Part shown: piece after piece, positions 3,318 through 53,161 of the stretch
Numbering within the stretch: the stretch's first letter is position 1
Layout: every line of letters begins with the position of its first letter
Assembly (NCBI GenBank): GCA_963716175.1
Contig: OY970296.1
Location: forward strand, 1,216,001 to 1,280,000
Direction: 5' to 3'
Source: an uncultured Armatimonadetes bacterium
GTDB taxonomy: Bacteria; Armatimonadota; Hebobacteria; Hebobacterales; Hebobacteraceae
DNA: 64,000 nucleotides
Notes under the pieces: generated by a model
What the model was told of the DNA's origin: nothing
The model's input: only the letters and a program-made list of their open reading frames with translations
The model's database searches: none
Program-made: the position numbers and the translations under genes

Positions 3318-3368
3318 GTAGGGCGGGCATAGCCATGCCCGCCGGGGCAGGTCCGCGACCTGCCCTAC
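3318..3368. repeat. GTAG-type REP doublet (REPIN-like)
   Basis: GTAGGGCGGGCATAGCCATGCCCGCC-GGGGCAGGTCCGCGACCTGCCCTAC; related doublets at 8573 and 33487. Confidence 0.85.
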
Positions 3369-4972: not shown

Positions 4973-5079
4973 CGTGGGGGCGTGATTCATCACGCCCAGG
5001 GCGCGATGAACTGCGCCCCGGCGAAGCCGCCAGGCGGGGTCAGGAGACCCCGCCCTACAGAACCGAGGAGAGAGGCAAT

Positions 5080-5967
5080 ATGACTGACCCGCAGGCCCCC
5101 TTGAGGAAGTTCAAGCCAAAGCGCGATTTCCTGGTGGGGATAGACTCGGATGGCTGCGCCTTCGACACCATGGAGATCAAGCACAAGGAATGCTTCATCC
5201 CCAATATCATCAAGCATTGGGATCTGCAGGCGGTGTCGAAGTACGCCCGGGAGGCGGGCGAGTTCGTGAATCTCTACTCGAAGTGGCGCGGGATCAACCG
5301 CTGGCCGGCCTTGCTGATGGTGTTCGACCTGCTGGCCGAGCGGCCGGAGGTGCAGCGCCGCGGGGTGAAGACGCCGGAGGTGTTATCCTTGCGGGAATGG
5401 GTGAAGACGGAGAAGGCGCTGGCGAATCCGGCCCTGAAGGTGGCAGCCGAGAAGACCGGCGATCCCATACTCAGGAAGGCGCTCGCCTGGAGCGAGGCGG
5501 TGAATGCCAGCATCGCGGACATGGTGCACGACGTGCCGCCATTCCCATTCGTATGCGAGACCCTGCAGGCGCTGGAGCCGAAGGCGGATGTGATCGTGGT
5601 GTCGGCCACACCGGGGGAGGCCTTGCGGCGGGAGTGGGCAGAGCACGACATCGCCAGGTACTGCGCCATCATCGCGGGCCAGGAGATGGGCAGCAAGAAG
5701 GATCACCTGGAGCTGGCAGCCGGAGAGAAGTACCCGAAGGATAACGTGCTGATGATCGGCGATGCGCCCGGTGACCTGAGCGCGGCCCGCGCCAATGGCG
5801 CGCTCTTCTTCCCCATCGAGCCGGGGCAAGAGGAGAAGTCGTGGCAGCGGTTCTACGAGGAGGGGATGGCGCGCTTCTTCGCCGGCACCTACGCCGGAGA
5901 GTATGAGGCAAACCTGATCCGGGAATTCGAGGCCCTGCTGCCAGATCGGCCGCCGTGGAGGCGGTAG
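5080..5967 (+). CDS. HAD-family hydrolase
   Basis: GIDSDGCAFDTM (DxDG), VVSAT, LMIGDAPGD; SD-like GAGG upstream. Confidence 0.88.
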   Translation: MTDPQAPLRKFKPKRDFLVGIDSDGCAFDTMEIKHKECFIPNIIKHWDLQAVSKYAREAGEFVNLYSKWRGINRWPALLMVFDLLAERPEVQRRGVKTPEVLSLREWVKTEKALANPALKVAAEKTGDPILRKALAWSEAVNASIADMVHDVPPFPFVCETLQALEPKADVIVVSATPGEALRREWAEHDIARYCAIIAGQEMGSKKDHLELAAGEKYPKDNVLMIGDAPGDLSAARANGALFFPIEPGQEEKSWQRFYEEGMARFFAGTYAGEYEANLIREFEALLPDRPPWRR

Positions 5968-6128: not shown

Positions 6129-7256
6129 CTACAAGCCTCGCGGTTGGGCAGGGCCCGCGGCCTGCTGCAAGGATGCGAGCTGGGCGCGGGAGCCCATGGC
6201 GATCACCTGATCGCCTGAGCTGAGGGTGGTGTCCGGTCGCGGGTTGGTGCGGAACTGCCCCCGCGCGTCCACGATGGCCAGGATCATCGCTCCGCCCTCG
6301 TGAGTGAGCCCGGAGGCGGAGAGGGCCTTGCCGATGGCGGGGGAATCGGGCGCGATGGGGATGGAGCCGATTTCCACATCCAGGTCTTGGCGGTGGAGCA
6401 CCTGCTCCAGGAAGTCCGTCACTCCCGGCTCGGCCGCGGCCGCGGCGAGGGCGCGCCCGCCGATCACATAGGGAGAGGCGACGCGATTGGCGCCCGCCCG
6501 CACCAGCTTGTCCACAGTCGCCTCCTGGCCGGCGCGGGCGACGATGTAGAGGTTGGGGTTGAGCAGCCGGGCGCTGAGCACGACAAACAGGTTGTCCTCA
6601 TCCGTGCCCACGGCCGCGATCAAGCCGCGGGCGCGCTCGATTCCTGCCGCCCGCAGGTGCTCGTCCTGCGTGGCGTTGCCCTCCACGAACGGCAGATCTC
6701 CCGCGCGCAGCAGGTCCAGCGCGGCCGGGTCCTGCTCGATCACGGCCGCCACCAGGCCCCGCCGGCGGAGCTGATCCACGGCCTCCCGGCCCATGCGGCC
6801 ATAGCCGCATACGATGTAGTGATTGCGCATCTCTCGCAAGGTTCGCGACCTCCGTCTGCGCTGCACTTCCGCGCTGAGCTGCTGACCCACCAACAGGCTG
6901 GCTGCGCTGCGGAGAGCAAAGGCCGCCACCGCGATGCCGGTGATGGCGAAGCCGGTGGTGAAGGCCCGCCCCAACTGGCTGAGCGGATGCACCTCCATGA
7001 AGCCGATGGTGGTGATGGTGAGCACCGCCATGTAGATGGCATCAACGGTGGTCCAGGCCGTGCCGCTTCGCCGGCTCTCCACGTTGACGTAGAAAGCGGC
7101 GGCGGCGATCACCAGGGACAGCAGCAGGCACACCGCGACCCAGAACTGGCGGGCCGAGCGGCTCAGGTCCTCCAGCGGGATCAGCCTGGTGCGCCATCCG
7201 TTGAGCTTGCCGGACACGTTCCCCTCGCTCACACTGGCAGCGGCCGGCATGGGCAT
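6129..7256 (-). CDS. Potassium channel protein (2TM pore + TrkA-N/RCK + TrkA-C); true start uncertain
   Basis: TITTIGF pore helix/filter, IVCGYGRMG Rossmann motif, C-terminal TrkA-C. Confidence 0.88.
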   Translation of the reverse strand: MPMPAAASVSEGNVSGKLNGWRTRLIPLEDLSRSARQFWVAVCLLLSLVIAAAAFYVNVESRRSGTAWTTVDAIYMAVLTITTIGFMEVHPLSQLGRAFTTGFAITGIAVAAFALRSAASLLVGQQLSAEVQRRRRSRTLREMRNHYIVCGYGRMGREAVDQLRRRGLVAAVIEQDPAALDLLRAGDLPFVEGNATQDEHLRAAGIERARGLIAAVGTDEDNLFVVLSARLLNPNLYIVARAGQEATVDKLVRAGANRVASPYVIGGRALAAAAAEPGVTDFLEQVLHRQDLDVEIGSIPIAPDSPAIGKALSASGLTHEGGAMILAIVDARGQFRTNPRPDTTLSSGDQVIAMGSRAQLASLQQAAGPAQPRGL

Positions 7257-7263
7257 GCCCGCC

Positions 7264-8514
7264 CTACAGCAGCGGCCGCAGGTCCACGCGGCGGCCCTGT
7301 TCCGCGCTCAGGTAGGCCGCATACAAGAGTATCGTCACATCCCGGGCCAACATGAAGCCCGAGATGGGCTCTCTTCCCTCGCTGATCGCGCCCACGAAGT
7401 CGGCGATCTCCTGCAGGTACCCCTGGTTCCAGTGCTCATCCGGGGAGGGGAAGGTCCAGCCGCCCTTGGTCTCGATCTTCTCGCTGATGTACTCCTCCCC
7501 AAGGATCTCGGGCGCGGGCGCATAGGCGACGCAGGCGTCGTTGGGGTTCATGTTGGCGCGGAGGCGGGCGTTGGAGAGGTAGGCCTCCAGGTAGTTGTGC
7601 ACCCCACCGAGAGTAGTGTCGCCGGCTTTCACCTCGGCCACCGAGCCATCCTCGAAAGTGAGCACCATGAGGCCCCAGTCCTCCACGTCCTGCCAGTCGT
7701 CCTTCAGGTAGTGGGTCGGCTCTTGCTTGAAGGCCTCGATGAAAGTGAGATTGCCGACCTCGCAGATGACGGAGGCGGGGCGGATGGGCCGGCCGAACTT
7801 GCGCTCGCCCTCCCACTGCTTGAGCTGAAGCACGGCCCCCAGGGGATGGGCGCCCTTCAGCACCAGCGAGCCGCCGCCGGACGTGCGCCAGCGCTTGGCA
7901 TAAATGGAGCCCGAGCCGGAGTGCGACTCCTCGGCCTCGATGCGCAGGATGGTCCCCCCGGCGGCATCGGCGAGGCGGCGCAGCTTCACAAAGGCCGGCG
8001 CGTAGACCCAGTTCTCGGCATAGCAGAAGCGGACGCCGGCAGCCCGGATGGCGGCGCCGATAGCCTCACAATCCGCGAGCACCTGATCCAGCATGTGCTG
8101 CCTGGAGGTGGTGCTGCCGATCAGGTCGTCCGTCAAGGCAGGCTGCGCACCTGCGGCGGCATGGGCAGGTCGCGGACCTGCCCTACGGGATTGGGGCTCG
8201 CCGAAGTACCCGGTGAGGTGTTTCTCGCAGATGATATGCTTGCCCGCGTGCGCGGCCTGGATGATGAACTCGGTGTGGAGGTGATTGGGGATGGAGAGGT
8301 CAACCGCGTCCAGCTCGACCGAGGCCAGCATCTGGTCCATGCTGGCGAAGGCCTGCGGGATGCCGTGCCTGGCGGCGAAGGCAGCGGCGCGCTCCTGGCT
8401 CCGGCCGCAGACGCCAACGACCCGGCAGCGATCCGGGCCCAGGCTCTGGTAGCCAGGCAGGTGCAGGTCGGCGGCGAAGCCGTACCCGACGAGACCGATG
8501 CGAAGCGTTGGCAT
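7264..8514 (-). CDS. Gfo/Idh/MocA oxidoreductase (paralog 1, with 18-aa repeat-derived insertion)
   Basis: IGLVGYGFAA, HIICEKH, GGGSLVLKGAHP; highly similar to 8623-9819. Confidence 0.9.
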   Translation of the reverse strand: MPTLRIGLVGYGFAADLHLPGYQSLGPDRCRVVGVCGRSQERAAAFAARHGIPQAFASMDQMLASVELDAVDLSIPNHLHTEFIIQAAHAGKHIICEKHLTGYFGEPQSRRAGPRPAHAAAGAQPALTDDLIGSTTSRQHMLDQVLADCEAIGAAIRAAGVRFCYAENWVYAPAFVKLRRLADAAGGTILRIEAEESHSGSGSIYAKRWRTSGGGSLVLKGAHPLGAVLQLKQWEGERKFGRPIRPASVICEVGNLTFIEAFKQEPTHYLKDDWQDVEDWGLMVLTFEDGSVAEVKAGDTTLGGVHNYLEAYLSNARLRANMNPNDACVAYAPAPEILGEEYISEKIETKGGWTFPSPDEHWNQGYLQEIADFVGAISEGREPISGFMLARDVTILLYAAYLSAEQGRRVDLRPLL

Positions 8515-8572
8515 CGCGCCTCCACTGGGCAGGAGGCAAGTCGCCAGAGGCGACTGAACCTCCTGCCCAACG

Positions 8573-8626
8573 GTAGGGCAGGTCCGCGACCTGCCCCGGC
8601 GGGCATGCCTTGCATGCCCGCCCTAC
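8573..8626. repeat. GTAG-type REP doublet overlapping the stop codon of 8623-9819
   Basis: GTAGGGCAGGTCCGCGACCTGCCCC-GGCGGGCATGCCTTGCATGCCCGCCCTAC. Confidence 0.85.
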
Positions 8627-9819
8627 AAGAGCGGCCGCAGGTCTACCCGGCGGCCTTCTTCGGCGCTGACGTAGGCCGCGTACAAGACGATGCTGACATC
8701 GCGCGCCAGCCTGGCGCCGGAGACGGGCTGGCGGTTCTCGGCTACAGCGGCGACGAAATCCGCGATCTCCTGCGGGTAGCCCTGATTCCAATCCTCGTCC
8801 GGGGAAGGCTGAGTCCAGCCGCCCTTGGTCTCGATTTTCTCCACGATGTACTCGTCGCCGAAGATGTGGGGCGCGGGCGCGTAGGCGACGCAGGCATCGG
8901 TGGGGTTGATGTTGGCGCGCAGGCGAGCGTTGGAGAGGTAGGCCTCGAGGTAGTTGTGGACGCCGCCCAGGGTGGTATCGCCGGCCTTCACCTCTGCCAC
9001 CGAGCCATCATCGAACTTGACCACGATGATGCCCCAATCCTCCACATCCCGCCACCCGGTGCGCAGGTACTGCTCCTTCTCCTGTTGGAAGGCGGGAATC
9101 CAGGTGAGGTGGCCCACCTCGCAGAAGACCGAGGCCGGGCGGATGGGCCGGCCGAACTTGGCCTCTCCCTCCCAGTGCTTCAGCTGCAGCGCCGCGCCCA
9201 ATGGGTGAGAGCCCTTCACCATCAGCGACCCGCCGCCGGAGGTGCGCCACTGCTTGGCGTAGTCCGCATGCGAGCCGGAGTGCGACTCCTCGGCCTCGAT
9301 GCGGAGGATGGTCCCGCCCGCGGCCTGGGCGAGGCGCCAGAGCTTGAGGTAGGAGGGCGCGTAGACCCAATTCTCGGCGTACCCGAACCTGATCCCGGAG
9401 GCTTTGAGCGCCGCCATCACTTGGTCGCAGCGGGCGATGGTGTGATCCAGCATCTGCTGGCGGGAGACCGTTTTCCCAATCAGCTCGTCCTTGGGACGGC
9501 CCTCGCCGAAGTAGCCGGTGAGCGGCTTTTCGCAGAACACGTGCTTTCCGGCCTGGGCGGCCTCGATGATGAAGGGGGCGTGGAGGTAGTTGGGCACGGC
9601 CAGGTCAACCGCGTCCACGTCGGGCCTGGCCAGCATCTCAGAGAAGCTCTCGCAAACCGAGGGGATGGCGTGCTTGGCCGCGAAGGTCTCGGCCTCAGAC
9701 CTGGGGACGCCGCACACCGCGACCACCTGGCAGCGCTCAGGGGCCAACTGCTTATAGCCGTGGATATGCAGGTTGGCGGAGAACCCGCAGCCTGCCATAC
9801 CGATGCGGACTGGTGGCAT
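8623..9819 (-). CDS. Gfo/Idh/MocA oxidoreductase (paralog 2)
   Basis: IGMAGCGFSA, HVFCEKPL, GGGSLMVKGSHP. Confidence 0.9.
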   Translation of the reverse strand: MPPVRIGMAGCGFSANLHIHGYKQLAPERCQVVAVCGVPRSEAETFAAKHAIPSVCESFSEMLARPDVDAVDLAVPNYLHAPFIIEAAQAGKHVFCEKPLTGYFGEGRPKDELIGKTVSRQQMLDHTIARCDQVMAALKASGIRFGYAENWVYAPSYLKLWRLAQAAGGTILRIEAEESHSGSHADYAKQWRTSGGGSLMVKGSHPLGAALQLKHWEGEAKFGRPIRPASVFCEVGHLTWIPAFQQEKEQYLRTGWRDVEDWGIIVVKFDDGSVAEVKAGDTTLGGVHNYLEAYLSNARLRANINPTDACVAYAPAPHIFGDEYIVEKIETKGGWTQPSPDEDWNQGYPQEIADFVAAVAENRQPVSGARLARDVSIVLYAAYVSAEEGRRVDLRPLL

Positions 9820-9858
9820 TAGCGCCAGACCTCCGTGGGGACAGGTTGCGGACCTGCC

Positions 9859-10824
9859 CTACTTGTAGACCTCGGGATTCACGCAGTACTGCGGGCGGCG
9901 GCCCTCGAACACAGCGATGATGGCGTCCACCACGCCATTGCCCATAGCCAGCAGCGCGCCGGGGGTATTGGAGGAGTTGTGGGGCATGGTCACGGCGCAC
10001 CCGCACTTCAGCAGGCGGCTCTGGGTGGGAGGCTCGGCGGCGTAGACGTCCAGACCCGCGCCGAAGATCCGGCCGGCCTCAAGGGCATCGGCCAGCGCCT
10101 CCTCGTCCACGATGGCGCCGCGGGCGGTGTTCACCAGAACGCCGGTCGGCTTCATCAGCGCGATGCGCTCGGCATTGATGCACTTGCGGGTTCCGTCGTT
10201 GAGCGGCATGTGAACGGAGACGAAATCGGCCTCCTTCATCACGTGCTCGATGGAGACGGCGCGCTCGACCACGAACTGGGCGGCGAACTCCTTATCGAAG
10301 AGAGGATCGTAGGCGAGAATTCGCATGTCGAAGCCGCGGCCCCGGCGGGCCACGCCCTTGCCGATCCGGCCCAGCCCCAGCAATCCGAGGGTGGCACCGC
10401 AGACGTCAACGCCGTAGGTGTTGGTCCATTGGCCGGCCTTGGTGGTGCGATCGCCCTCCGGGATCTTCCGCGCCACCGCCAGCATCAGGGCGAAGGCCAT
10501 GTCGGCGACGGCTTCGGCATTGGCTCCCGGCAGATTGGCGACCACGATCCCGCGGCGGGTGCACTCGGCCACATCCACGCAGTCCATGCCCGCGCCGTGG
10601 CGGGCCAGCACCTTCAGCCGCTCAGCGTCGTCGAAGGCGGGCGGGAAGAACTGATCCACGCCGGCCGCGATCCCGTCCACATCTCTCAGCACAGACCTCA
10701 GCTCGTCGGGGGTCATAGGACGCCCATAGGGGTTGTGCGCGACCTCATAGCCGGCGGCGATCAGCCGGTCCTCCGGCTCCCGGGTCACTTCGCTGAAGGA
10801 AGTGGCGGTGATCAGGACCTTCAT
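9859..10824 (-). CDS. D-isomer-specific 2-hydroxyacid dehydrogenase (phosphoglycerate dehydrogenase-like)
   Basis: MKVLIT start, GLLGLGRIG, VNTARGAIVDE, GAGLDVY, MPH. Confidence 0.9.
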   Translation of the reverse strand: MKVLITATSFSEVTREPEDRLIAAGYEVAHNPYGRPMTPDELRSVLRDVDGIAAGVDQFFPPAFDDAERLKVLARHGAGMDCVDVAECTRRGIVVANLPGANAEAVADMAFALMLAVARKIPEGDRTTKAGQWTNTYGVDVCGATLGLLGLGRIGKGVARRGRGFDMRILAYDPLFDKEFAAQFVVERAVSIEHVMKEADFVSVHMPLNDGTRKCINAERIALMKPTGVLVNTARGAIVDEEALADALEAGRIFGAGLDVYAAEPPTQSRLLKCGCAVTMPHNSSNTPGALLAMGNGVVDAIIAVFEGRRPQYCVNPEVYK

Positions 10825-10913
10825 CTGACGACTCCTAGCGACGGTCGGCGGCGATGCCTTCGGCATGGCCGCCCCACAGAACGGCGATGCCGGCGGGCAT
10901 GGGCATGCCTGCC

Positions 10914-13570
10914 CTACAAGGTGCCGTCGAGCTGGGCCATCTCGATGTTCTGGTTGGGACAGCGGCGGAAACACATTCCACAGGCGACACACTTCTCCTC
11001 GTCTATGTGGAAGGCATCGCTGCCGCGGCGCTCGATGGCGAAGGAGGAGCAGATGCGGAAGCAGAGGGCGCACCCCTCGCCACAGCCGCAGACCAGGCAG
11101 CGGCTCGCCTCGGCCACGGCTTCCTCCTCGGTGAGCGCCGGGGTGTAAGGCGCGAAGTCCAATCGGCGCTGGGCCGCGGGGCGCAGAGGTAGCGCGACCC
11201 GATCCTGAATCTGGAGCCCGTGCTGCCGCGCCAGCACCTGCTGCTTGGAGACCTCGGCGAGGATGGGATCATAGCTGAGGAAGGGCTCGCCGCCGGAGAG
11301 GAAGCGGTCAATGGAAACCGCAGCGCGGCGGCCGGAGGCGACGGCGGCGATCACGGTATCGGGGCCGGTGGCGGCGTCGCCGCCGACGAAGAGACCCTCA
11401 ATGGTAGTGGCTCCGGTGTCGAGATCGCAAGCCAAGCTGCCGTCGGCATTCACGGTCAGGCCCTCAACCGCGGTGGCGACCTGCTGGCCCAGGGCGTTGA
11501 TCACCATATCGCAGGGGAGAGAGAACTCGGTCTGCTCGACTGGATCGGGCCGGCGGCGGCCGGAGGCATCGGGCTCGCCCAGGGTGTGAATGCGCATGGT
11601 GAGGCCGGTGACGCGGTTGCGCTTCTTGAGCACGGCCAGCGGGGCCACCAGGTAGATCACGCGCACCCCTTCCGCTTCCGCCTCCCCCACCTCCTCGGGC
11701 ACGGCCGGCATCTCGTCCCGGGTGCGCCGGTAGCAGAGGAAGACCTCTTTGGCGCCCAGGCGGAGCGCGGTGCGGGCGGCGTCCACGGCGGTAAAGCCAC
11801 CGCCAATCACGGCCACGCGTTCGCCGACATTGACCTTGCGGCCACGACGGAGGTTGGTCAGGAAGTCAACCGCCGAGACCACGCCGCGGGCGTCCTCGCC
11901 AGGGACCTGGAGGCGAAGACCCGACCAGGCCCCGATCCCCAGGAAGATGGCGTCATAGCCATCTGCTCGCAGGCTGGAGAGAGTGAAGTCTTTCCCCAGG
12001 CGCCGGTGGCACCTGATCTTCACCCCGAGCGACTGGAGCGCGCCGATCTCGGCCTCGAGCACGGCCTCTGGCAGCCGGAAGCTGGGGATGCCATAGCGCA
12101 TCATGCCGCCCGGCCTGCGCTCGGCGTCGAACACCGTGACCTGGTGGCCAGCGCGCGCCAGGTCCCAGGCGCAGGCGATCCCCGCCGGGCCGGAGCCGAC
12201 CACGGCGACTCTCTTCCCACTCTTCGGCAGCCGGTCCACCTCGGGCCGCCAGCCCTGGGCGACCGCGTATTCGAGCACGAACCGCTTGAGATCGCGAATG
12301 CGGATGGGCTCATCTACATCGCCCCGGGTGCAGGCGGTCTCGCATGGGTGCGAGCAGATGTAGCCGCAGACAGATTGCAGAGGATCGCGGGAGGTGATGA
12401 GGCGATAGGCTTCCTCGAAGTCGCGCTCGGCCACCTTCTGGACATAGCCCTGCGCGGGGACCTGGTTGGGGCAGGCGAACTTGCAGGGAGCGGAGAGATA
12501 AGGCTGCTTGATGCGGCCGTGGCCGGGGTAGAGCGTCAGCTTGTCGGCCGCCGTCACTTCCGACACCAGCAGGTCGCGCATCGCCCCCCAGGTCTCGAAC
12601 CCCATCTTGTCCAGGTAGCGCAGCACGCCGTCGGTGATATCGCGCACGATCCCATAACCGTGCGCCAGCACCGCGGTGCAGATACCCACCAGGTCGGCGC
12701 CGAAGAAGGCCATCTCCACCGCGTCCTGCCAGGTTTCGACTCCGCCGGTGGCGATGGCCGCCACCTGGGGGCCGTTGCGCTTGCGAATCTCGAAGATATC
12801 GCGGAGGGCGAGAGGCTTGGCCCAGGGCCCGGACATGCAACTCAGGGAAACCTGCTCCTGGAGGTGGTAGACCGCTTTCCTCGGGTTCCAGATATCTATG
12901 GGCGGGATGGCGAGCCGATTCGCATTGGAGCCGACGGCCACCGCGCCGGCCTGGTAGGCGGCCTGGGCCACGTCGGCCAGCCGTCCCCCTCCGGGCTGAG
13001 CTTGACGAACACCGGGATGGAGACCGCGGCCACGGTGGCGCGGACGATCTCGCCAACGGCCTGGGGATCCATGCCCAGAGAGGCGCCGCTGACGGGCCCG
13101 CCCTCGTGCAGCTCACCCGTGAGCGCCAGGTTGAAGGACATGTTGGGGCAGCCCAGGTTCACTTCGAGCACGTGGCATCCCGCCTGCTCGAACACCCGCG
13201 CCATGTTCACCCACCCCTCCACCCCCTTGTCCCCGGAGTAGCTGTAGTTGGCCAGGATGACGAAGTCCTTGTCCACCCGGGGCCGAGCGGCCTGCACCAG
13301 CTCCACCGCCTGGTCCAGGTTGAGGCGTTTCTCGGCGGTGAACGCGAGGAAGCCCTGGGGCTCGAAGTAGCCATACCGGGGCTCGCGGTTGATGTACGGA
13401 GGGGGATCGAACGTGAGCTTGATGGAGGCGCCCGACCAGCCCAGCTCGCAGCCCCGGGCGAGTTGGTCGGCGGAGTGAGTGGTGGGCCCGGAGGCGAGGA
13501 AGAACGGGTTCTTGAAGGTGACACCGGCGATGGTCACCGCCAGCCGGGGATCGGCAGTCCTCTCGGTCAT
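10914..13570 (-). CDS. Fused dihydroorotate/dihydropyrimidine dehydrogenase-like enzyme (PreA-like FMN barrel + PreT/GltD-like FAD/Fe-S + ferredoxin); frameshift at ~12985-12989
   Basis: NPFFLASGP, EVNLGCPN, VFVKLSP, then CKFACP, CGYICSHPCETAC, VVGSGPAG, VIGGGFTAVD, CVACGMCFRRCP; one extra G joins the two ORFs. Confidence 0.85.
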
Positions 13571-44385: not shown

Positions 44386-46434
44386 CTACAGGTGCGGGGG
44401 CTTTGTGCCATCTCGAGAGAAGGTGATGCGGTCCTGGCCGACGGTCACCACTCCCTTCTTCAGCTCCACATCGGGCGCGGTCTCGCCCTGTGCCAGTGGG
44501 ACCAGGACAACCATGAACTCCATCTCCTTCGCCTTCTCCGGCGCGCAGATGCGGAGGGTCAAAGGTGACTCCACATTGATCTTGTCCCCGATGCCAGGCA
44601 GCACGGCGAGGGTCACACCCTTGGGCGAAAGGACCCGCCCCGCGAGCCAGGCGCGCTCTCCCTGGATGATGAAGCGGTCGCCGGTGCATTCGGCGCCGGG
44701 CGAGGCGGCCGCAGGTTGGGAACCTGCGCTACCGGCCGCAGGTTGGGAACCTGCGCTACTGACCTGCACGCTGGCGAAGGTGACGGGGCCGCCCGGCTGG
44801 AGCATGAACTCGAAGCTCTCGGTCTGCTTCACCCGGGCGCGGTCGCGCACGACCACATAGCCCCACTTGCCGGTGCCCTCATGCGGGTGCACCAGGGTCA
44901 GCTCGCGCACCACGGACTCCGCGCCTTCATAGGCCTGAGTCGCGTCAGACCGGAACCAGATCAGGCCGTCTCGCTCTTCCGCGTCGGTGATCACGGCGCC
45001 ACTATCGTTATCCTTGCGCTGGTTCCGACCGCCGATCACCAGGCAGTTGTGGCCGGCGGTGTCGTTACTGAAGTAGTCCACCTCCTTGCCGTAGTAGCCG
45101 GGCCCTACCTCGCCGTAGCCGTAATCGCGCAGCAGCCACTCGCCCCCCGCGTTGAGCAGGAAGTCGTTGACATCGAGGTGGGAGTGGGAGACATCGGCCT
45201 TGCCGCTGCGGAGGTGAAGGGTGAGCGCATCCGCGTTCCAGCTTGTCCGCGCGCCGGCGAAGCCGGTCTGCTCGAAGGCGTGCCACAACGGCAGGCTCTC
45301 AGGCACTTCCGCCTCGAGCGATGGGTCGCGCCAGAGCAGCTCGTATAGGGCCGAGTCCAGATCGCGTTGCCGAGGCAGCGCCGCGCCCAGCCACTGGGCG
45401 AGCGGATTCCGGTACTCCGCCGCCAGCCGGTACATGAGAGGGCCGATCGCGTGCCAGTCGCGGGGTGGGCCGTCGCCGAAGTTGGCGCAGGTGCCCATGT
45501 CGGGGCCGGCCAGGTAGAGCCGGAAGAGATGGGTGTTACGGAGGTAGATGGAGGTGTAGAAATCCTCGGTGAGGTAGGGCCTGGTGGCGGTGATGAACCG
45601 GACCAGGGACTCCATGCCATAGCCCCAATACGGCACGCCCTCCTCATAGGCCCCTTCCTCCGGCAGCTCGGCGACGATGTGGTGGAATCCCCACTCCGCC
45701 TTCGCCAGCCACTCGCCCACCCCCGGCACGTCTCCCGCCAGCGCCACCGCGGTCACGCCCAGCCCGCCGTAGTTGCACCAGGCGTGGTTCTGACGCCAGG
45801 AGGTCTTCCACCAGCCGCGGTTGTTGGCGCCGATGGCGGCCTCGTACATCACCTTGCCGTGCTCGGCGAGGATCCGGCGCAGGCGCTCGCGATCCTCTGG
45901 CGACCAGCGGCCGTAGAGCCAGTCATAGGCGATGGAGATGCCGTAGAGCTCATGCGCGGCGGCCAGGTCAGTGCCCTCGAAGATGCCCGCACCCCAGAGG
46001 GGATACTCGCCGGGCTTGAGCGCCCACTTGCGGGCGGCCTCGAAGTACTTGGGGTCGGGGTCGAGCAAGGCCACCAGCGCCAGCCCGGGGATGCGGTAGC
46101 CGAACACGCGCTGCCACAGCATCTCGTCATTGGGCGTGCCCGGCCGCGTGGGTTCGCTTTCGATGGGCCGGTTCTCGGGCGGGTCGTGGTCGAGGGACTT
46201 ATCCACCGCGGCCTTCAGGCGCTCCCATTCCGCGCGTTTGGTGGTCTTGATCTCCTCTCTCAGCCGCGCCAGGCCGTCGGCCTGGAAGAACAGCCGGGGC
46301 CGGCCTGCGTTCGCGATGCTTGTCTCCAGCTCGGTCGGGTTCATGCTCACCTCACTCGATTTCCGCGCAGCCGGACAGGCGGCGGTCATCACCAGCCCGA
46401 CAACCACAAGTAGAATGGACGCATTCCTTCTCAA
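44386..46434 (-). CDS. Heparinase II/III-family (DUF4962-like) polysaccharide lyase; start TTG 46434 or ATG 46344
   Basis: RPRLFF, QNH, YEEGVPYWGYG, NFGDG, SHSHLDVNDF, GHN. Confidence 0.85.
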   Translation of the reverse strand: MRRNASILLVVVGLVMTAACPAARKSSEVSMNPTELETSIANAGRPRLFFQADGLARLREEIKTTKRAEWERLKAAVDKSLDHDPPENRPIESEPTRPGTPNDEMLWQRVFGYRIPGLALVALLDPDPKYFEAARKWALKPGEYPLWGAGIFEGTDLAAAHELYGISIAYDWLYGRWSPEDRERLRRILAEHGKVMYEAAIGANNRGWWKTSWRQNHAWCNYGGLGVTAVALAGDVPGVGEWLAKAEWGFHHIVAELPEEGAYEEGVPYWGYGMESLVRFITATRPYLTEDFYTSIYLRNTHLFRLYLAGPDMGTCANFGDGPPRDWHAIGPLMYRLAAEYRNPLAQWLGAALPRQRDLDSALYELLWRDPSLEAEVPESLPLWHAFEQTGFAGARTSWNADALTLHLRSGKADVSHSHLDVNDFLLNAGGEWLLRDYGYGEVGPGYYGKEVDYFSNDTAGHNCLVIGGRNQRKDNDSGAVITDAEERDGLIWFRSDATQAYEGAESVVRELTLVHPHEGTGKWGYVVVRDRARVKQTESFEFMLQPGGPVTFASVQVSSAGSQPAAGSAGSQPAAASPGAECTGDRFIIQGERAWLAGRVLSPKGVTLAVLPGIGDKINVESPLTLRICAPEKAKEMEFMVVLVPLAQGETAPDVELKKGVVTVGQDRITFSRDGTKPPHL

Positions 46435-53096: not shown

Positions 53097-53161
53097 CTGG
53101 GCGGACACCGGCGATACGGGGCAGGTCGCGGACCTGCCCTACGAGATCATGGAGGAGAGCG

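What the first reader, a model, noticed from the sequence alone, without database searches (positions are those of the whole stretch)
8134..8190. REP inserted in frame inside an oxidoreductase, with the neighbouring paralog as empty-site control
Seen: paralog 1 reads [31 protein letters not shown] where paralog 2 reads YFGEGRPKDELIG, and the proteins are 416 versus 398 aa. The extra DNA contains GGGCAGGTCGCGGACCTGCCCTAC (8163-8186), the same REP found intergenically at ~3345-3368, 8573 and ~53118-53142, plus a decayed second hairpin. Known precedent: Rickettsia palindromic elements create new peptide segments. Inference: selfish palindromes are generating protein loops de novo here.
Basis: partly seen in the sequence, partly recalled or inferred. 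Interest (0 to 1): 0.78.

Follow-up and report, generated by a model that had tools for sequence, protein, structure and literature searches.

The report
REP hairpin pair inside enzyme gene
A small selfish DNA hairpin repeat has landed in frame inside an intact sugar-type dehydrogenase gene and adds a floppy 17-residue loop; this is real, and other genes in this genome and other lineages show the same thing, but the phenomenon is already known in other bacteria.

Summary
Window 8163-8186 is an exact copy of a GTAG-headed REP. It lies in frame in a 416-aa Gfo/Idh/MocA gene (7264-8514, minus strand). With a diverged inverted partner (8132-8156) it forms a REPIN-like doublet.

The tandem paralog is an old duplicate, so it is a weak control. 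True orthologs are better: 7 of 8 same-family orthologs have a short loop, a net difference of 51 nt. The eighth carries a different REP at the same loop, and a third lineage (P0005) carries a third REP dimer there.

This REP type has 54 copies in this genome and none in the 40 relatives searched. Contigs from two independent metagenome studies span the insert without gaps. Strain differences are mostly synonymous (8:4 and 10:3), so the gene is not decaying.

By my rule, 17 of 231 family REPs in this genome are intragenic. Ortholog comparison confirmed MiaB (+11 aa), a GH57-type amylase (+8 aa, exactly one REP) and an overwritten AlaRS loop.

RAYT-like transposase genes flanked by REPs are present, but mobilisation by them is inferred. 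Intragenic GTAG REPs and TAG stop donation were described by Di Nocera et al. 2013 (PMC3733652). Verdict: a new member of a known kind. The recurrent same-loop hits are the most interesting part.

The parts
7264..8514 (-). Host gene ('paralog 1'): 416-aa Gfo/Idh/MocA-type oxidoreductase carrying the insert at residues about 108-128.
   Evidence: ORF. PF01408 E 2.6e-19. Gfo/Idh/MocA folds are the top hits. It keeps every invariant column of the 23-sequence alignment.
8163..8186 (-). REP-A unit, exact copy of GTAGGGCAGGTCCGCGACCTGCCC on the coding strand. It is read as (S)RRAGPRPA(H), in a frame that avoids the TAG.
   Evidence: There are 33 exact and 54 copies at up to 2 mismatches in the genome.
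8132..8156 (+). Diverged inverted partner unit with head GTCAAGGCAGG. Together with 8157-8162 and the REP-A unit it forms the 55-nt doublet 8132-8186.
   Evidence: It folds with REP-A into one long hairpin. It is unique in the genome at up to 3 mismatches.
8623..9819 (-). Tandem paralog 2, 398 aa, with a short loop (YFGEGRPKDELIG). It is an old duplicate, not an empty site.
8573..8626 (.). Intergenic head-out REP doublet (54 nt): REP-A at 8573-8596, then inverted REP-B at 8601-8626. The CTAC/GTAG head of REP-B supplies the TAG stop of paralog 2 (8623-8625).
7242..7267 (-). REP-B-type unit whose GTAG head supplies the TAG stop of paralog 1 (7264-7266).
   Evidence: Sequence. Listed as G000:C1:1223242-1223267.
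9839..9862 (-). REP-A variant (2 mismatches) between paralog 2 and the upstream ORF 9859-11073(-). Its head supplies that ORF's TAG stop.
4976..5023 (+). Copy of a third REP dimer family (GGGGCGTGATTCATCACGCCC..GGGCGCGATGAACTGCGCCCC). This is the family whose translation matches the insert of homolog P0005 at the same loop.

Best explanation
A GTAG-headed REP doublet (REPIN-like: one exact REP-A unit plus a diverged inverted partner, together 55 nt, net +51 nt) was copied into the variable tip of a loop-coding stretch of a functional Gfo/Idh/MocA oxidoreductase gene. This happened in the lineage of this genome, after it split from the other genera of its family. The gain is a multiple of three and the reading frame avoids the TAG of the GTAG head, so the gene stayed open. 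It now encodes a 17-residue Arg/Pro/Ala/Gly-rich, probably disordered loop between the strand carrying the CEKH motif and the next helix. The protein otherwise remains under purifying selection, so the insert is most likely a tolerated, near-neutral passenger. Shown here: the REP identity, its lineage specificity, the insert-free orthologs, the intact and conserved gene, and the presence of the insert in independent samples. Inferred: mobilisation by the genome's RAYT-like tyrosine transposases through single-stranded DNA, neutrality of the loop, and translation of the insert. The same loop was hit independently in two other lineages by two other REP types. I attribute this mainly to a selective filter, because it is the only indel-tolerant internal site of this protein.
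For: - Identity: 24 of 24 match to the genome's commonest REP-A form.
- Lineage specificity: 54 copies at up to 2 mismatches in G000 and 0 in each of 40 relatives.
- Empty sites: 7 of 8 same-family orthologs read have the short loop EPxxPxxE(L/P/M)IG. Only 4 of 121 homologs have any insert there, and it is the only internal indel of 4 or more residues in that alignment.
- Independent gains: the insert-bearing rows fall in three places on a quick tree, each with an insert-free sister, and starred branches force 3 changes.
- The other two inserts are other REPs. L007/G008 DNA holds GGCGGGCGTGGGCACGCCCGCCCTAC, a family with 13 hits in G008 and 68 in G012. The P0005 insert peptide matches 11 places each in G000 and G011 (best 94% identity, E 8.5e-6), and these places are GTAG-headed dimers. 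The G005 ortholog, 90% identical to P0005, has no insert.
- Doublet: the insert folds into one long hairpin.
- Not an artefact: two contigs from two studies span it with no gaps.
- Not decaying: the protein keeps all invariant columns. The coding score is 0.24 per codon against -0.57 and -0.49 in the other two frames of the same strand. Strain differences are 8 synonymous to 4 non-synonymous (X3) and 10 to 3 (X2/X5).
- Loop character: residues 106-134 have pLDDT below 50 and no secondary structure.
- Transposase: 5 PF01797 matches in the genome. Two of the genes are flanked on both sides by inverted GTAGGGC REPs, two others have such REPs on one side or inside their own open frame, and the fifth (1199809-1200342) has none nearby.
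- Other genes: MiaB has +11 aa (10 of 10 orthologs lack it). GH57 has +8 aa, exactly one 24-nt REP-A (4 of 4 lack it).
Against: - No RAYT-like gene is flanked by REP-A itself; the flanking REPs are of the GTAGGGCGGG type. The link between REP-A and a transposase rests on the shared head only.
- The partner unit is unique in the genome, while the REP-A unit is perfect. This is odd for a recent doublet insertion.
- The event is not a clean cut-and-paste. Codons on both sides differ from all orthologs.
- In AlaRS a REP occupies a loop with no net length change (11 of 11 orthologs have a same-length non-REP loop). So conversion-like copying, not only transposition, may place REPs in genes.
- The model is of moderate quality (mean pLDDT 67) and I had no coordinates, so surface exposure is not shown.
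- The SNP counts use differences that I assigned to near-identical contigs by their depth. Some may belong to other strains.
Confidence: 0.85

Rival explanations
1. Target-site preference: the loop-coding DNA, or its single-stranded or transcribed state, is a preferred integration site for RAYT-mobilised REPs. That would make the three hits at one loop a property of the insertion machinery, not only of selection.
For: Three different REP types lie within about two codons of each other, just upstream of the conserved GACGAG(CTG ATC GG). All three inserts among the 121 homologs are at this one site. Different REPs at about the same site were also reported for Xanthomonas recB (PMC3733652, section read).
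Against: The empty sites show no GTAG/CTAC or other obvious shared motif. The hit positions are the least conserved columns of the protein, which is what a selective filter predicts. The junctions in MiaB, GH57 and AlaRS share no evident motif with this one. Only four junctions were read.
Confidence: 0.2
2. Templated conversion instead of transposition: the REP sequence was copied into the gene by recombination or template switching from another REP copy at a site of microhomology.
For: In AlaRS the REP replaces a loop of the same length. The orthologous DNA there (GCGCGGGCGCGC...) resembles the REP stem. In the oxidoreductase the flanking codons also changed.
Against: The oxidoreductase, MiaB and GH57 cases are net insertions of 51, 33 and 24 nt. 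The GH57 gain is exactly one REP unit with unchanged flanks, which fits insertion of a discrete unit.
Confidence: 0.1
3. The segment is ancestral and was deleted from paralog 2 and from the orthologs.
For: None beyond the bare length difference.
Against: The segment is a perfect copy of a repeat found only in this genome. On the tree, each insert-bearing lineage has an insert-free sister. The three inserts are three different repeats.
Confidence: 0.02
4. The insert has been co-opted. The strong hairpin inside the mRNA, or the new loop next to the cofactor-binding motif, would tune the expression or activity of paralog 1 relative to paralog 2.
For: The hairpin is strong as RNA (-35.4 kcal/mol). 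The insert is kept in strains from several studies. The other-lineage insert is shared by two species of one genus, G008 and G012.
Against: One of the few non-synonymous strain differences lies in the insert and one lies beside it. The three lineages carry unrelated peptides. REPs are about five-fold depleted from coding DNA (17 of 231 against 756 of 2000 random places), as expected for mostly harmful or neutral passengers.
Confidence: 0.05

Closest known systems
Intragenic GTAG-tagged REPs (Di Nocera, De Gregorio and Rocco 2013, PMC3733652; passages and section 15 read)
   Same: GTAG head plus GC-rich stem-loop. Head-out dimers. Mostly intergenic, with a minority entirely inside ORFs that encode known proteins. 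Dimers encode about 20-30 residues. GTAG termini donate TAG stop codons. RAYT genes are flanked by GTAG repeats. tRNA synthetase and replication genes are among the hosts. Different REPs sit at about the same site in Xanthomonas recB.
   Different: The host phylum here is Armatimonadota; no paper in the library holds both 'Armatimonadota' and 'REPIN'. Here one loop of one orthologous enzyme was hit three times by three REP types in three genera of one family, each with an insert-free sister.
Rickettsia palindromic elements (RPEs). Ogata et al. 2000 is recalled and was not read; RPEs as summarised in PMC3733652 were read.
   Same: Selfish palindromic repeats inserted in frame in genes that stay functional, adding peptide segments.
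   Different: According to PMC3733652, the intragenic R. conorii repeats RPE-4 and RPE-6 are CGTC-tagged, and RPE-1 is a longer element. The element here is GTAG-tagged, short (24-nt units), and sits in a free-living, REP-rich, 66% G+C genome.
REPIN-RAYT systems (Bertels and Rainey 2011, PMC3116915; search listing and abstract only)
   Same: Two inverted REPs that can fold into one long hairpin. They are thought to be the mobile unit copied by a RAYT.
   Different: The two units here are unequal (one perfect, one unique and diverged). There are five PF01797 genes instead of the usual single RAYT, and none is flanked by REP-A itself.

Membership tests
GTAG-tagged REP super-family | GTAG tetranucleotide at one end, followed by a short GC-rich stem-loop. 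| tested here: met
   GTAG + GGCAGGTC / CGC / GACCTGCC. GTAG is followed by a hairpin of 6 bp or more in 1460 of 25296 cases (5.8%), against 4.4-4.7% for seven control tetranucleotides. The excess falls into a few families.
GTAG-tagged REP super-family | Many dispersed copies, mostly between genes. | tested here: met
   54 REP-A copies at up to 2 mismatches across the 4.56-Mb contig. There are 231 family REPs, of which 17 are classed intragenic, against 756 of 2000 random places by the same rule.
GTAG-tagged REP super-family | Association with a RAYT (Y1/HUH transposase) gene flanked by the repeats. | tested here: inconclusive
   5 PF01797 matches. In one search four score above the 23-bit cut-off and one scores 21.8. 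Two genes are flanked on both sides by inverted GTAGGGCGG-type REPs. None is flanked by REP-A. No activity was tested.
REPIN (REP doublet forming a hairpin) | Two inverted REP units that pair into one long hairpin and recur as a unit. | tested here: inconclusive
   The insert folds into one long hairpin, but its second unit occurs nowhere else. Typical doublets in this genome are REP-A plus REP-B.
Rickettsia palindromic elements | Membership of the RPE sequence families (CGTC-tagged RPE-4/-6, long RPE-1). | tested here: not met
   The head here is GTAG. PMC3733652 assigns the intragenic R. conorii repeats to the CGTC type. The two work alike but are not the same family.
Gfo/Idh/MocA oxidoreductase (host gene) | N-terminal NAD-binding Rossmann domain plus C-terminal alpha/beta domain. 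| tested here: met
   PF01408 at 70.5 bits. PF22725 is below its cut-off in paralog 1 (22.3 against 27), while PF02894 passes in paralog 2. The top 50 Foldseek hits are Gfo/Idh/MocA enzymes. The substrate is unknown.

The most novel reading that the evidence does not exclude
The loop between the CEKH strand and the following helix of this enzyme family may be a true integration hot spot for RAYT-mobilised REPs, set by target choice through local sequence or single-strand structure and not only by tolerance. Three REP families in three genera landed within about two codons of each other. If so, REP/RAYT systems have a readable target rule, which is still unknown for this transposase class. This family of Armatimonadota genomes, with its many intragenic REPs and insert-free orthologs, would be a natural data set for deriving it.
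Probability: 0.2. Interest if true: 0.6.

Novelty: new member of a known kind. Interest (0 to 1): 0.42.

Why it matters
This is a clean, well-controlled natural example of selfish DNA adding peptide segments to working enzymes. It comes with insert-free orthologs, population data and three independent hits at one loop. It extends intragenic GTAG REPs to an uncultured Armatimonadota lineage. It also marks positions in MiaB, a GH57-type amylase, AlaRS and this oxidoreductase that tolerate 8-17 extra residues, which is useful for protein engineering and for asking how REPs choose or survive at their sites. For annotation, it is a reminder that REP-rich genomes contain in-frame repeats and REP-donated stop codons. 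These are neither errors nor pseudogenes.

Tried and rejected
- Expression: the look-up of sequencing runs listed no RNA holder, so expression could not be assessed.
The REP nature of the P0005 insert therefore rests on peptide-to-genome matches.
- Surface exposure: no model coordinates reach the script box. Only pLDDT and secondary structure are reported.
- Time-outs: a first hairpin census and an edit-distance search for the second hairpin both timed out and gave nothing. They were redone.
- Tree: the careful search did not finish in time. The quick IQ-TREE result is used.
- 'Skip' joints in run X2 (8019-8040 to 8194-8201): I considered these as possible empty-site alleles and rejected that. 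They have short sides and 'between: not known', and most likely come from related organisms matching only the conserved flanks.
- Target motif: I looked for a shared motif at four junctions and saw none. A CCCTAC six bases upstream of the GH57 insert occurs only in G000 and is not in three of four orthologs.
- Loop-length scan: the regex scan of 158 fetched loci found the loop in 118 segments, and only L007 had a long one. The other 40 loci were not matched by the regex and remain unread.
It was sent again with the field added and nothing else changed.

Full report
**What is there.** On the minus strand of the window lie two tandem genes of the Gfo/Idh/MocA oxidoreductase family. They are 7264-8514 (416 aa, 'paralog 1') and 8623-9819 (398 aa, 'paralog 2'). 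In DNA this is a 54-nt gap. Inside it, at 8163-8186, is GGGCAGGTCGCGGACCTGCCCTAC. On the coding strand this reads GTAGGGCAGGTCCGCGACCTGCCC. With up to 3 mismatches this 24-mer has 7 matches (6 sites) in the window, against none in 100 shuffles.

**What the repeat is.**
- The window belongs to a single 4.56-Mb contig of 66% G+C. Homologs are labelled Armatimonadota.
- The 24-mer ('REP-A') has 33 exact copies and 54 copies at up to 2 mismatches.
- It has the anatomy of the GTAG-tagged REPs: a GTAG head, an 8-bp GC-rich stem and a 3-nt loop.
- It is one of several families sharing the head GTAGGGC. Hairpin-forming prefixes include GTAGGGCGGGCAT (87), GTAGGGCAGGTCC (46) and GTAGGGCGGCCAT (28).
- Many copies sit in head-out doublets with a second type ('REP-B', GTAGGGCGGGCATG...). 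An example is the 54-nt doublet at 8573-8626 between the two paralogs.
- The genome has five PF01797 (IS200-like Y1 transposase) matches in ORFs of 177-198 aa. Two are flanked on both sides by inverted GTAGGGC REPs, the usual arrangement of a RAYT gene. Two others have such REPs on one side or inside their own open frame, and the fifth has none nearby. None is flanked by REP-A itself.

**The insert is a doublet.** Downstream of REP-A on the coding strand lie 7 nt and then CGCAGGTGCGCAGCCTGCCTTGAC. Its reverse complement (window 8132-8156) starts GTCAAGGCAGG, which is a REP head and half-stem with one extra base and one change. The whole 69-nt stretch folds into a single long hairpin. As RNA it gives -35.4 kcal/mol, z -3.6, with 0 of 200 shuffles as good. 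As DNA it gives -18.1 kcal/mol, z -2.7. This is what a REPIN-like head-out doublet does. The second unit has no other copy in the genome at up to 3 mismatches. It is therefore either a decayed unit or a rare type, and I could not decide which.

**Which state is ancestral.**
- The paralog is a poor control. The tandem pair is present in 8 other genomes of the same family (G001, G003, G004, G005, G008, G009, G010, G014), so the duplication is old.
- The orthologs of paralog 1 are the right control. Of the 8 same-family orthologs whose DNA I read, 7 have the short loop TGYFGEPxxPxxE(L/P/M)IG, 51 nt shorter than here.
- In a 121-sequence alignment of the best homologs, only 4 carry an insert at this loop: the window protein, its 98% relative P0001, P0005 and P0020. 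This loop is the only internal place with an indel of 4 or more residues.
- REP-A was not found in any of the 40 relatives searched, 14 of them from the same family.
- Hence the insert is derived, it is specific to this lineage, and it is a perfect copy of a repeat that exists only here.

**The same loop was hit three times.**
- P0020 (locus L007, an Armatimonadota MAG, the same place as G008) has a 15-residue insert. Its DNA contains GGCGGGCGTGGGCACGCCCGCCCTAC, a REP-B unit in the opposite orientation. That family has 13 hits in G008, 68 in its congener G012 and 63 in G000. The G012 ortholog fragment carries the same GGRGHARPT segment, so that insertion predates the split of those two species.
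- P0005 has a 17-residue insert (RGIGGRGVIHHAQGAMNCAPAG). I could not get its DNA. The peptide matches 11 places in G000 and 11 in G011 (best 94% identity over residues 6-21, E 8.5e-6). In G000 these places are head-out dimers of a third GTAG family, GTAGGGGCGTGATTCATCACGCCC ... GGGCGCAATGAATTGCGCCCCTAC, one of them at window 4976-5023. The closest genome ortholog of P0005 (G005, 90% identical) has no insert.
- On a quick maximum-likelihood tree the insert-bearing rows fall in three places, each with an insert-free sister: P0002, P0006 and P0036. Well-supported branches force three changes (the careful search did not finish).
- Three different repeats, three places on the tree: these are independent gains.

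**Is the gene alive?**
- The ORF is intact. It keeps every invariant column of the 23-sequence alignment.
- It has a coding-like codon score in the right frame only (0.24 against -0.57 and -0.49 in the other two frames of the same strand).
- Contigs of public metagenome runs from different studies cover the insert without gaps: X2 record 12 (8001-8533) and X3 record 19 (7933-8556). Other assemblies break at the repeat.
- Differences between these strains and the window are mostly synonymous: 8 to 4 in X3 and 10 to 3 in X2/X5. One non-synonymous change lies inside the insert (A123T) and one beside it (P107A, the P0001 allele). I assigned these differences to near-identical contigs by their depth, which is a source of error.
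- No RNA run was listed, so expression is untested.

**Where it sits in the protein.** AlphaFold2 on the 23-row alignment gave a moderate model (mean pLDDT 67, pTM 0.74). Residues 106-134 have pLDDT below 50 and no secondary structure. They lie between strand 93-97, which ends in the CEKH motif, and helix 138-159. The model's best structural matches are Gfo/Idh/MocA enzymes. I had no coordinates, so I cannot state solvent exposure. The insert lies in the least conserved columns of the family.

**The wider pattern in this genome.**
- I used a codon-usage score and required an open frame plus coding-like flanks on both sides. By this rule 17 of 231 family REPs are intragenic, against 756 of 2000 random places. 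REPs are thus about five-fold depleted from genes but not absent.
- MiaB-type methylthiotransferase: +11 residues (ERRACRDMPALQ region). All 10 family orthologs lack it, and there is a 9-residue gap against PDB 7MJV.
- GH57-type amylase C-terminal domain: +8 residues VGQVRDLP. This is exactly one 24-nt REP-A with unchanged flanks, and 4 of 4 orthologs lack it.
- Alanyl-tRNA synthetase: a REP-B unit (GGRGNARPT) occupies a loop that is the same length but unrelated in 11 of 11 orthologs. This is a replacement and not a net insertion.
- Pfam domains span the repeat in AlaRS, MiaB, a signal peptidase, a HAD hydrolase and GH57.
- Further candidates were not checked against orthologs: TilS, PriA (two REPs), DnaE, a GNAT pair, and a large ORF in this window at 44710-44759.
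- The TAG stops of paralog 1, paralog 2 and the upstream ORF all lie in GTAG heads.

**How it most likely works.**
- Shown: a discrete REP doublet was added to the gene in this lineage, and the gene stayed open and conserved.
- Inferred: the copy was made by the RAYT-like transposases acting on single-stranded DNA, as proposed for REPs and REPINs in general.
- Only insertions that are a multiple of three, avoid the TAG frame and fall in a tolerant loop survive. This explains both the depletion from genes and the repeated use of this one loop.
- The AlaRS case and the altered flanks here leave room for conversion-like copying.
- A true target preference is a live alternative for the hot spot. 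I saw no motif in four junctions, which is too few to exclude it.

**Comparison with what is known.** Di Nocera et al. 2013 (PMC3733652; passages and section 15 read) describe the following:
- GTAG REPs located entirely within ORFs in several species, most in Opitutus terrae.
- Dimers encoding 20-30 residues.
- Hosts that include tRNA synthetases and DnaE.
- GTAG termini that provide TAG stops.
- Different REPs at about the same site of Xanthomonas recB.

They cite the Rickettsia RPEs as the precedent. The finding is therefore a new member of a known kind. New here are the phylum (no paper in the library holds both 'Armatimonadota' and 'REPIN'), the triple independent hit with insert-free sisters, and the population evidence.

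**Verdict.** The novelty is modest. Interest is 0.42.

Noticed in passing
window 44710-44759 (genome 1260710-1260759), minus strand: Two tandem units of another GTAG family (GTAGCGCAGGTTCCCAACCTGCG) lie in frame in a long coding-like ORF, giving AGSQPAA twice (SSAGSQPAAGSAGSQPAAAS). There is no Pfam hit on the 225-aa segment, and orthologs were not checked.
   Followed up: partly
window 7264-7267, 8623-8626, 9859-9862: The TAG stop codons of paralog 1, paralog 2 and the upstream ORF (9859-11073, minus) are each the TAG of a REP's GTAG head. The same is described in PMC3733652.
   Followed up: partly
genome G000:C1:3377662-3377687 (locus L222/L228): In alanyl-tRNA synthetase a REP-B unit occupies a loop with no net length change. 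All 11 family orthologs have an unrelated loop of the same length, and their DNA there partly resembles the REP stem. This suggests overwriting by conversion, or insertion plus deletion.
   Followed up: partly
genome G000:C1:3132006-3132578 (locus L190): One of the RAYT-like (PF01797) genes has a GTAGGGCGGGGCATTCTCTGATGCCCCGCC unit inside its own open frame at 3132410-3132439. There its relatives have a shorter segment before the FAWQxEFFDH motif.
   Followed up: no
genome G000:C1:3075941-3076624 (locus L227): The DnaE-like ORF carries REP-A in the reverse orientation (GQVADLPY), followed by about 70 residues of low-complexity sequence between the HhH domain and the rest of the protein. It was not compared with orthologs.
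   Followed up: no
genome G000:C1:1282389-1282442 (about 2.4 kb beyond the window end; locus L218): A head-out REP doublet lies in frame between two GNAT acetyltransferase domains ([19 protein letters not shown]). It either links two domains or fuses two former genes by reading through the repeat.
   Followed up: no
L257 (G012:C322:4700-5659): The G012 ortholog fragment with the REP-B insert changes frame about 140 residues after the CEKH motif (…WEGETKF stop, then it continues in another frame). This is a frameshift or an assembly error (1 TGA noted).
   Followed up: no
window 4976-5023: A third GTAG dimer family (GGGGCGTGATTCATCACGCCC / GGGCGCGATGAACTGCGCCCC) sits just upstream of the ORF starting at 5080. 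It has 11 peptide-level matches in G000 and 11 in relative G011.
   Followed up: partly
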